Shown here piece by piece: positions 57,047-57,364 of a stretch of 64,000 bases of DNA. Source of the stretch: a virus. Taxonomy: Duplodnaviria; Heunggongvirae; Uroviricota; Caudoviricetes. A model generated the notes under the pieces. It saw nothing but the letters and a program-made list of their open reading frames with translations, had not been told where the DNA came from and did not search any database. Each line of letters opens with the position of its first letter. Positions within the stretch are counted from its first letter, which is position 1. Made by a program: the position numbers and the translations under genes. The DNA lies in IMG/VR virus record IMGVR_UViG_2778261268_000002; one strand, written 5' to 3'.

Positions 57047-57364
57047 TCAATATACGATCTGGTCTACATGATCCCCAAAATCATCGTCGTCATCGTCGTC
57101 GTCCTCATCGCCACCCTCTACTGCTGGCCAATCAACAAACCAGCCAGCGTAAAGATGCAGCGTTCGGAGAACATCACTTGCGGGAGCATCAAGGGTGTTA
57201 ACGAATCCCATATAGCTATTGGGATTTGCCCCAGCTATGGCTTCAGCGATCATGTCCTCGGTAATGTCACCGGAGATAATGCTTAAACGCCCGGAAACTT
57301 CTTCATTATCATCAAATTCGATAATGGCATCTCCGCCTAATGGCGCTGCGATTTTAATCTGCAT
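57047..57364 (-). CDS. strongly acidic small protein (poly-Asp tract)
   Basis: 105 aa ending ...EGGDEDDDDDDDDFGDHVDQIVY. Confidence 0.5.
   Translation of the reverse strand: MQIKIAAPLGGDAIIEFDDNEEVSGRLSIISGDITEDMIAEAIAGANPNSYMGFVNTLDAPASDVLRTLHLYAGWFVDWPAVEGGDEDDDDDDDDFGDHVDQIVY

What the first reader, a model, noticed from the sequence alone, without database searches (positions are those of the whole stretch)
57047..57364. Poly-aspartate acidic small protein in the anti-restriction operon: possible DNA mimic
The 105-aa protein ends with a run of eight to ten consecutive Asp residues and is acidic throughout, reminiscent of DNA-mimic anti-restriction proteins (Ocr/ArdA style). It is encoded immediately upstream of the large HExxH protein and the darA-like gene.
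Basis: inference. Interest (0 to 1): 0.4.

Follow-up and report, generated by a model that had tools for sequence, protein, structure and literature searches.

The report
P1 hxr: acidic-tailed Dar-operon protein

Summary
The ORF is real and sits where reported: 57047-57364, minus strand, 105 aa, pI 4.05, 26 D/E against 3 K/R, with DEDDDDDDDD at residues 86-95.

- **Identity.** It is the P1 gene hxr (94-97% identical by two methods; PHROG 2292, unknown function). The window is a P1-like plasmid prophage.
- **Position.** hxr is the last gene of the late darA operon (lydA-lydB-hdf-darA-ddrA-ddrB-hxr). It overlaps the ddrB stop by 11 nt, has an AAGGAG ribosome-binding site, and is followed at once by a strong terminator.
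- **Distribution.** The family is confined to P1-like elements of Enterobacterales. In 11 of 12 loci examined it follows a full-length ddrB.
- **What is conserved.** The poly-Asp run is not conserved; it varies from 4 to 10 Asp. The conserved features are an ~80-aa core with no detectable fold relative, a 20-25-residue disordered tail of net charge -6 to -13, and a hydrophobic C-terminal tip (I-V-N/Y).
- **What it is not.** No member matches an HTH, Ocr or ArdA family.
- **Best guess (inferred).** It is a DdrB-coupled accessory factor whose polyanionic tail occupies a basic or DNA-binding surface. An Ocr-style inhibitor of host restriction enzymes would require packaging into the virion, which has not been shown. 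hxr is non-essential in published CRISPRi data.

The parts
57047..57364 (-). hxr coding sequence (105 aa plus TGA stop), orthologue of phage P1 hxr / P1_gp021
   Evidence: The ORF is listed. It is 97% identical to P1 Hxr in the MAFFT alignment (94% by tblastn with the tract gap). It matches PHROG 2292 at E 5.7e-62. dN/dS is about 0.2.
57119..57364 (-). Conserved globular core, residues 1-82, predicted beta-beta-beta-alpha-loop-alpha-beta
57050..57118 (-). Polyanionic, predicted disordered C-terminal tail (residues 83-105) ending in the hydrophobic tip Q-I-V-Y
   Evidence: pLDDT is below 50 for residues 88-105. Measured from the residue after the invariant Pro80, the tail is 20-25 residues long with net charge -6 to -13, has at most one basic residue in all 33 homologues, and ends in I/V-V/I-N/H/Y.
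57080..57109 (-). DEDDDDDDDD tract encoded by GAT GAG (GAC)3 GAT (GAC)2 (GAT)2, a length-polymorphic trinucleotide repeat
   Evidence: The tract sequence is. The Asp run is 5 in P1, 6 in SJ46, 8 here and 10 in pMTY1886, and 4 in P0056.
57372..57377 (-). Shine-Dalgarno AAGGAG, 7 nt before the hxr ATG, lying inside the 3' end of ddrB
   Evidence: Read directly from the sequence.
57354..57364 (-). 11-nt overlap between the end of ddrB and the start of hxr (translational coupling)
   Evidence: ORF coordinates are. An 11-17 nt overlap is seen in the 9 loci where both gene ends were read: P1, SJ46, L003, JK004, Citrobacter, TUM1586, Leclercia, L009 and L011. tblastn shows the same abutting arrangement in L013-L015.
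57016..57048 (-). Intrinsic terminator (GC-rich hairpin plus U8) that begins within the hxr stop codon. It is shared, on the other strand, with the convergent isaA-like gene.
   Evidence: RNA fold gives -21.4 kcal/mol, z -5.5, and 0 of 200 shuffles fold as well. The consensus scan missed it.
57354..60341 (-). ddrB (995 aa): N-terminal DdrB-type ParB-like domain, C-terminal HELGH (residue 872) zincin-like peptidase region, and a basic patch at residues 901-950 (net +9)
   Evidence: Pfam PF18763 at E 5.5e-39, PHROG 2299, charge profile, domain interpretation from PMC5512222.
60354..63995 (-). Rest of the darA operon: ddrA 60354-60719, darA 60716-62635, hdf 62637-63248, lydB 63226-63669, lydA 63666-63995. 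The late promoter LPdar would lie just beyond the window end.
   Evidence: ORFs are and the P1 annotation, including LPdar upstream of lydA, is. DdrA matches PHROG 1855.

Best explanation
**Shown.** The ORF is the phage P1 gene hxr. It is the terminal, translationally coupled cistron of the late darA (defence-against-restriction and head-morphogenesis) operon of a P1-like plasmid prophage. It encodes a two-part protein. The first part is an ~80-residue alpha/beta core with no recognisable relatives. The second is a 20-25-residue disordered polyanionic tail ending in a conserved hydrophobic tip. It is not an Xre-type repressor.

**Inferred.** Hxr is most likely an accessory factor of the Dar module that works with its upstream partner DdrB in the phage-producing cell. 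In this view the core docks on a partner. The tail acts as a flexible, nucleic-acid-like polyanion that occupies a basic or DNA-binding surface. Candidate surfaces are the +9 segment next to the HELGH peptidase motif of DdrB, the ParB-like domain, and the very basic Hdf. This would keep that surface from binding DNA or substrate prematurely, until the Dar proteins are processed and loaded into proheads. That is a chaperone- or immunity-protein-like role. It is not an Ocr-like attack on host type I enzymes at the moment of DNA entry.
For: **Identity**
- 94-97% identical to P1 Hxr depending on the method, same gene order.
- PHROG 2292 at E 5.7e-62.

**Coupling to ddrB**
- AAGGAG site and an 11-nt overlap with the ddrB stop.
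- In 11 of 12 loci hxr directly follows a full-length ddrB, down to 37-45% Hxr and 42-45% DdrB identity (gene ends read).
- Phage D6 kept only the N-terminal 454 aa of DdrB and has no hxr.
- A terminator directly after hxr closes the operon.
- The only promoter annotated for the operon in P1 is the late promoter LPdar. No sigma-70-like site was found on the minus strand upstream of hxr.

**Architecture**
- Core block-mean pLDDT mostly 85-92, tail below 50.
- Tail charge of -6 to -13 and the C-terminal I-V-N/Y tip are conserved, while the tail sequence and the Asp-run length vary.
- A natural tandem-duplicated form (P0007) hints that the core works as a dimer.

**Possible electrostatic partners in the same operon**
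- DdrB residues 901-950 carry net +9, and Hdf has pI 10.3.

**Consistency with the literature**
- Hxr is not among the 27 virion proteins, whereas DdrB, DdrA, DarA, Hdf, DarB and Ulx are (PMC9024508).
- hxr is non-essential by CRISPRi (PMC10695390).
Against: - No interaction was tested here.
- In L003, DdrB is 95% identical to the window's but Hxr is only 58%/44% identical. The pair therefore does not co-diverge strictly.
- Loss of hxr in D6 could be a single deletion that also removed the 3' half of ddrB, so it counts as one event.
- Absence from the virion proteome is weak evidence. Trypsin yields only one peptide of practical size (22 aa), with the others at 4, 41 and 38 aa, and the study required two unique peptides.
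- Knock-down of hxr gave no plating defect. If Hxr restrains a harmful DdrB activity, that activity is not limiting for plaque formation in the laboratory.
Confidence: 0.4

Rival explanations
1. One reading: Hxr is itself an anti-restriction or anti-defence DNA mimic. It would be packaged into the head with the other Dar proteins and injected, or would act late in the producing cell. It would bind the DNA-binding groove of type I R-M enzymes, BREX or another nuclease through its acidic core and tail.
For: - Net charge is about -23 over 105 aa, with an acidic core (-10) and tail (-13).
- It lies in the operon whose other products are packaged anti-restriction proteins.
- The tail evolves fast, by indels and substitutions, on an otherwise identical core, as might be expected in an arms race.
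- The virion proteomics could easily have missed it.
- A dimer-like tandem form exists. Ocr and ArdA act as dimers (own knowledge).
Against: - No sequence or fold similarity to Ocr, ArdA or any solved DNA mimic.
- Core charge is not conserved; it ranges from -1 to -10.
- The conserved charge lies in a disordered tail, not in a rigid phosphate-like array.
- It is expressed from a late operon and is not listed among virion proteins.
[quoted passage not shown] None is assigned to Hxr.
Confidence: 0.2
2. Hxr has a role unrelated to restriction. It could be a head-assembly or lysis-timing accessory, or a conserved passenger gene at the operon end with a host-directed function still unknown.
For: - The operon also carries lysis genes (lydA, lydB) and head-size genes (hdf, darA).
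- hxr borders a highly variable cargo slot.
- A recombination break lies at the ddrB/hxr junction in L003.
- It is non-essential.
Against: The overlap with ddrB is kept strictly across about 60% sequence divergence, which argues for co-expression with DdrB rather than independent cargo. Unlike the neighbouring slot, the gene is never replaced.
Confidence: 0.25
3. Database annotation: Hxr is a repressor homologous to Xre (a helix-turn-helix DNA-binding protein).
For: The P1 GenBank note records 28% identity between residues 23-80 and an Xre repressor. That label has been copied into SJ46, RCS47, JL22, UniRef and other records.
Against: - No HTH family matched at E <= 1 in any of 33 family members.
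- The predicted core has four strands and two helices, not a five-helix bundle.
- pI is 4.05 with only 3 basic residues, which is incompatible with binding DNA.
Confidence: 0.02

Closest known systems
Phage P1 Hxr (P1_gp021, YP_006490; PHROG 2292)
   Same: Same protein family, 94-97% identical, in the same position after ddrB in the darA operon.
   Different: The Asp tract is 8 here against 5 in P1, through an extra GAC GAC GAT. P1 carries IS1 and isaB next to hxr, which this element lacks. The P1 label 'homolog of Xre' is not supported.
T7 Ocr (gp0.3) and ArdA, the structured DNA-mimic anti-restriction proteins
   Same: All are small, have pI around 4 and are encoded by mobile elements in an anti-restriction setting. 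Ocr also has a short acidic C-terminal extension (own knowledge).
   Different: No sequence or fold similarity. Ocr and ArdA carry their charge on a rigid, DNA-shaped dimer and are expressed first on entry (own knowledge). Hxr's conserved charge is on a disordered tail and the gene is late.
Small acidic inhibitors encoded directly downstream of the enzyme they restrain (colicin DNase immunity proteins Im7/Im9, barstar, NuiA)
   Same: A protein of about 85-105 aa and strongly acidic, co-translated from the cistron immediately after a large protein with predicted nuclease-like (ParB-type) and peptidase domains. The comparison itself rests on my own knowledge.
   Different: No homology. DdrB nuclease activity and toxicity are only predictions (PMC5512222). 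Knock-down of hxr is harmless for plaque formation.
Acidic C-terminal tails with a hydrophobic tip in DNA-handling proteins (E. coli and P1 SSB ...DFDDDIPF, T7 gp2.5, the HMGB1 tail)
   Same: A disordered polyanionic tail ending in hydrophobic residues. In the known cases such tails dock on basic or DNA-binding surfaces and compete with DNA (own knowledge). The SSB encoded in this window ends in MDFDDDIPF.
   Different: Hxr has no DNA-binding domain of its own. Its tip is I-V-N/Y and not P-F. Binding partners are unknown.

Membership tests
P1 Hxr family (PHROG 2292) | Full-length sequence similarity to P1 Hxr | tested here: met
   PHROG 2292 at E 5.7e-62 over residues 1-105. Identity to P1 Hxr is 97% by MAFFT and 94% by tblastn.
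P1 Hxr family (PHROG 2292) | Position as the last cistron after ddrB in the darA operon | tested here: met
   Found in the window and in 11 of 12 comparison loci.
Xre-type HTH repressors | HTH_3/Xre helix-turn-helix domain detectable by profile | tested here: not met
   No HTH family at E <= 1 in the window protein or in any of 33 homologues. PDB profile searches were negative.
Xre-type HTH repressors | All-alpha five-helix fold with a basic DNA-binding face | tested here: not met
Ocr (T7 gp0.3) family | Sequence or fold similarity to Ocr | tested here: not met
ArdA family | Sequence or fold similarity to ArdA | tested here: not met
DNA-mimic proteins (a functional class with heterogeneous folds) | Small protein with a large excess of acidic residues | tested here: met
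   26 D/E against 3 K/R and pI 4.05. The tail is acidic in all homologues.
DNA-mimic proteins (a functional class with heterogeneous folds) | Carboxylates arranged on a folded surface with the spacing of DNA phosphates | tested here: inconclusive
The conserved charge lies in a segment with pLDDT below 50, and core charge is not conserved (-1 to -10).
DNA-mimic proteins (a functional class with heterogeneous folds) | Binds and inhibits a DNA-binding protein in competition with DNA | not testable with these tools
   This needs biochemistry or co-folding.
P1 Dar system components | Packaged in the virion and ejected with the DNA | not testable with these tools
   Hxr is not among the 27 proteins of the published virion proteome. 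However, only one practical tryptic peptide exists, so the absence is uninformative.
P1 Dar system components | Loss changes plating on type I restricting hosts or changes Dar protein packaging | not tested
   Only non-essentiality on a non-restricting host is reported (PMC10695390). The paper that study cites for hxr non-essentiality (PMC6011833) could not be read.

The most novel reading that the evidence does not exclude
Hxr could be the founding member of a new-fold class of anti-defence or self-control proteins. In this reading a short, disordered polyanionic tail with a hydrophobic tip, and not a rigid DNA-shaped body, serves as the nucleic-acid decoy. Two versions fit the data:
- Hxr is injected with the Dar proteins and blocks host restriction or BREX-type enzymes.
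- Hxr is the dedicated inhibitor or escort of the DdrB ParB-like/peptidase protein, which would reveal an enzyme-plus-immunity pair inside a phage head-delivered anti-restriction system.
Probability: 0.2. Interest if true: 0.6.

Novelty: already known. Interest (0 to 1): 0.33.

Why it matters
The P1 Dar system is the textbook case of virion-delivered anti-restriction, yet its mechanism remains unclear. Current descriptions count six proteins and ignore hxr. hxr is nevertheless conserved, under purifying selection, and co-translated with ddrB in every P1-like element examined that has a full-length ddrB.

Correcting the propagated "Xre-like repressor" label removes a false regulator from hundreds of phage-plasmid annotations. 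Defining the real architecture (a core with no detectable fold relative plus a polyanionic tail with a conserved tip) gives a cheap, testable candidate for a seventh Dar component.

If the tail proves to be a DNA decoy, it would add a disordered-tail type to the DNA-mimic repertoire. If not, the finding is an ordinary, already named accessory gene.

Tried and rejected
**Profile libraries.** Pfam, NCBIfam and PADLOC scans of Hxr gave nothing. PHROGs returned only the unknown-function family 2292.

**Solved structures.** PDB sequence-profile searches gave only chance hits at E 0.6-1.3.

**Fold searches.**
- Foldseek against BFVD gave a best E of 0.2.
- The afdb50 library was not available.

**Remote homology.**
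- A profile against 1.84 billion representatives found 15 hits.
- A profile against 5.8 billion proteins found 42 hits.
- All hits that carry a source name, or whose context I examined, come from Enterobacterales or P1-like elements. No distant family emerged.

**Related loci.** The search for related loci with alignment A3 failed for lack of a conserved stretch. With A2 on genome contigs it found only 3 loci.

**Literature.**
- Searches for hxr, P1_gp021 and 'DNA mimic' with P1 found only annotation tables and one CRISPRi entry.
- The P1 genome paper (PMC523184) and PMC6011833, the paper the CRISPRi study cites for hxr non-essentiality, are not held.
- The supplement of the P1 virion proteome paper does not mention Hxr, and a P1 transcriptome paper does not either.

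**Ideas rejected.**
- The consensus terminator scan missed the obvious hairpin, so I folded it directly.
- Xre repressor: rejected.
- Chance ORF, or the antisense ORF 56957-57286: rejected because conservation and dN/dS support the minus-strand frame.
- SSB C-terminal tip mimic: not pursued, because the tip I-V-N/Y differs from the P-F seen in the window's own SSB.
- D6 orf23 and orf24 as hidden Hxr analogues: rejected, since one looks like a secreted protein or lipoprotein and the other is unrelated.

Full report
**1. Observation**

The ORF listing and the raw sequence show a minus-strand ORF at 57047-57364 with an ATG start and a TGA stop, encoding 105 aa. The protein has 19 Asp and 7 Glu against 1 Lys and 2 Arg, and a pI of 4.05. 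Residues 86-95 read DEDDDDDDDD and are followed by FGDHVDQIVY.

A run of eight Asp occurred in 6 of 200,000 shuffles of the protein's own composition. The Asp run is not the C-terminus. On its own strand the gene lies downstream of the HExxH protein, not upstream.

**2. What the locus is**

The 900 bp around the ORF match P1-type phages (Punavirus: P1, P7, SJ46, RCS47 and others) at 97-99%. Against the P1 and SJ46 annotations, the minus strand of the window carries these genes:

| Gene | Coordinates |
|---|---|
| lydA | 63666-63995 |
| lydB | 63226-63669 |
| hdf | 62637-63248 |
| darA | 60716-62635 |
| ddrA | 60354-60719 |
| ddrB | 57354-60341 |
| target ORF (P1 hxr, P1_gp021) | 57047-57364 |

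- The target ORF is 97% identical to P1 Hxr by MAFFT and 94% by tblastn.
- In P1 the only promoter annotated for this operon is the late promoter LPdar, upstream of lydA. In the window that site would fall just past position 64000.
- No sigma-70-like site was found on the minus strand inside the operon.
- hxr has a strong AAGGAG site at 57372-57377, and its ATG overlaps the last 11 nt of ddrB.
- A GC-rich hairpin followed by U8 starts within the stop codon. It folds at -21.4 kcal/mol with z -5.5 and faces the convergent isaA-like gene.
- hxr is thus the last, translationally coupled cistron of the late Dar operon.

**3. Is it a real gene, and how widespread is it?**

- The exact 105-aa protein is on record on at least 1000 contigs, in a 90%-identity cluster of 848 sequences.
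- tblastn finds the gene in 20 phage records and 504 plasmids. The organisms are Escherichia, Salmonella, Klebsiella, Citrobacter, Shigella, Leclercia, Enterobacter and Cronobacter.
- Exhaustive profile searches found only 15 representatives among 1.84 billion proteins and 42 clusters among 5.8 billion. All hits that carry a source name, or whose context I examined, come from Enterobacterales or P1-like elements.
- For the core, dN/dS is about 0.2 where dS is not saturated. Distant pairs keep 37-46% amino-acid identity although synonymous sites are saturated.
- It is a real, selected and lineage-restricted gene.

**4. Anatomy of the family**

An alignment of 33 members (A3) shows the following.

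- *Core.* G53, N56, L66, R67, W79 and P80 are invariant, within the consensus GxVNT..A...VLRSLE..GW.V.WP.
- *Tail.* After Pro80 comes a tail of 20-25 residues with net charge -6 to -13 and at most one basic residue in every member.
- *Tip.* The extreme C-terminus is conserved as I/V-V/I-N. It is Y in the P1 clade and H in some others.
- *Asp run.* The homopolymeric run is specific to the P1 clade and is length-polymorphic. It is 4, 5, 6, 8 or 10 Asp on otherwise nearly identical cores. Here the difference from P1 is an extra GAC GAC GAT. More distant members have mixed D/E/P/G/N tails.
- *Core charge.* It varies from -1 to -10, so core acidity is not the conserved property.
- *Predicted structure.* AlphaFold2 on the 33-sequence alignment gives mean pLDDT 77.5. 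Block means over residues 1-80 are 72-92, mostly 85-92. Residues 88-105 are below 50. The topology is beta(2-6)-beta(12-16)-beta(28-32)-alpha(36-43)-loop-alpha(62-71)-beta.
- *Tandem variant.* One natural variant (P0007, 184 aa) is a tandem duplication of the core, with the long tail only on the second copy. This suggests the core may act as a dimer.

**5. Tests against known families**

- No Pfam, NCBIfam or PADLOC family matches. No HTH family matches any of the 33 members even at E <= 1.
- PHROGs places the protein in family 2292, of unknown function.
- PDB profile searches were negative.
- The propagated annotation 'possible repressor; homolog of Xre' therefore fails on sequence, fold and charge. 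Membership in the Ocr or ArdA families fails as well.

**6. Link to DdrB**

- In 11 of 12 loci analysed, hxr directly follows a full-length DdrB homologue. This holds from 99% down to 42% DdrB identity. An 11-17 nt overlap was read from the gene ends in 9 loci.
- The twelfth locus is a 2.7-kb rearranged contig that still holds what looks like a short ddrB 3' remnant.
- DdrB has an N-terminal DdrB-type ParB-like domain (PF18763, E 5.5e-39) and a C-terminal HELGH motif at residue 872. Iyer et al. predict a DNase-like domain and an autoprocessing zincin-like peptidase (PMC5512222).
- The N-terminal ~450 aa of DdrB occur in many other phages without hxr. Phage D6, a P1 relative, kept only that half and lacks hxr.
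- The only strongly basic stretch of DdrB is residues 901-950 (net +9), inside the peptidase region. Hdf, in the same operon, has pI 10.3.
- Against strict pairing, L003 combines a DdrB 95% identical to the window's with an Hxr only 58%/44% identical.

**7. Literature**

- hxr is mentioned only in annotation tables and in a genome-wide CRISPRi screen, where it scores as non-essential with plating efficiencies of 1.6 and 1.2 (PMC10695390).
- The P1 virion proteome lists DdrB, DdrA, DarA, Hdf, DarB and Ulx but not Hxr (PMC9024508).
- That study required two unique tryptic peptides. Hxr yields peptides of 4, 22, 41 and 38 residues, so the absence is weak evidence.
- Recent structural work describes six Dar proteins and does not mention Hxr (PMC12810830).

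**8. Interpretation**

*Shown.* The gene is P1 hxr. It is late, co-translated with ddrB and conserved. Its architecture is a core without a detectable fold relative, a polyanionic disordered tail and a hydrophobic tip. It is not an HTH repressor and is not related to Ocr or ArdA.

*Inferred.* The conserved property is a flexible polyanion of fixed length with a docking tip. The gene is tied to ddrB and is expressed late. I therefore favour a role inside the Dar module in the producing cell. In this role Hxr escorts or restrains a basic or DNA-binding surface of DdrB, or of Hdf, until processing and head loading. This is analogous in logic to acidic immunity proteins encoded after nucleases, and to acidic tails that mask DNA-binding surfaces (own knowledge). 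I give this a confidence of about 0.4.

The other readings are:

It requires virion packaging, which is not shown, and it would work through a disordered tail and not an Ocr-like body.
- An unrelated accessory role is about 0.25.
- The Xre-repressor reading is about 0.02.

**9. Novelty and score**

The gene is already catalogued as P1 hxr, so the entity is known. What is new here is modest: the Xre label is refuted and the conserved tail architecture is defined. Function remains open. I score interest at about 0.33. The most novel reading not excluded is a disordered-tail DNA decoy, or a DdrB immunity partner, as a seventh Dar component. I give that a probability of about 0.2 and an interest of about 0.6 if true.

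Noticed in passing
window 55377-56222 (+): A 281-aa ORF whose C-terminal residues 197-280 match Pfam PF11195, the Tad2-like (Thoeris anti-defence 2-like) domain, at E 5.7e-23. It is present in SJ46 (97% identical). P1 lacks window 55549-56233, and its isaA is a deletion-fusion of this ORF's first 65 codons to the next gene. The PHROG 872 match starts at residue 57, so the true start may be the ATG near 55545.
   Followed up: partly
window 55377-57017, and the equivalent slot in L001, L002, L003, L006, L008, L010: The interval between ssb and hxr is a variable cargo slot in P1-like elements. P1 has isaA/IS1/isaB. This window and SJ46 have the Tad2-like ORF plus an isaA-like ORF. L003 and a Klebsiella mcr-1 plasmid have an OmpD-like porin. 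CP099272 has a HipA-family toxin (YjjJ). Citrobacter and Leclercia plasmids have a TIGR02594-family protein.
   Followed up: partly
L003 5228-8759: A metagenomic P1-like contig has a DdrB 95% identical to the window's. Its Hxr is a tandem duplication (184 aa) only 58%/44% identical, which implies a recombination break at the ddrB/hxr junction.
   Followed up: partly
L012 (phage D6) 6992-9416: Phage D6 keeps only the N-terminal 454 aa of DdrB (ParB-like half). The C-terminal half and hxr are replaced by two unrelated ORFs. One of these has an N-terminal signal-peptide- or lipoprotein-like sequence.
   Followed up: partly
window 57354-60341 (-), DdrB residues 872-950: The HELGH motif at residue 872 is followed by the only strongly basic stretch of DdrB (residues 901-950, net +9). 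This is a candidate docking surface for the Hxr tail, but that is untested.
   Followed up: no
window 58086-58536 (+): Two overlapping plus-strand ORFs (143 and 131 aa) lie inside ddrB, at roughly the position of the P1-annotated gene iddB ('internal to ddrB'). They are probably not real genes. I did not examine them.
   Followed up: no
window 57016-57048: The consensus terminator scan did not report the strong hairpin-plus-U8 terminator shared by hxr and the convergent isaA-like gene. It was found only by direct folding.
   Followed up: yes
protein clusters P0005, P0006, P0009, P0011: Rare database variants of Hxr (1-2 sequences each) are frameshifted or truncated at or just before the Asp-codon repeat. 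This fits slippage or sequencing errors in the GAC/GAT tract.
   Followed up: no
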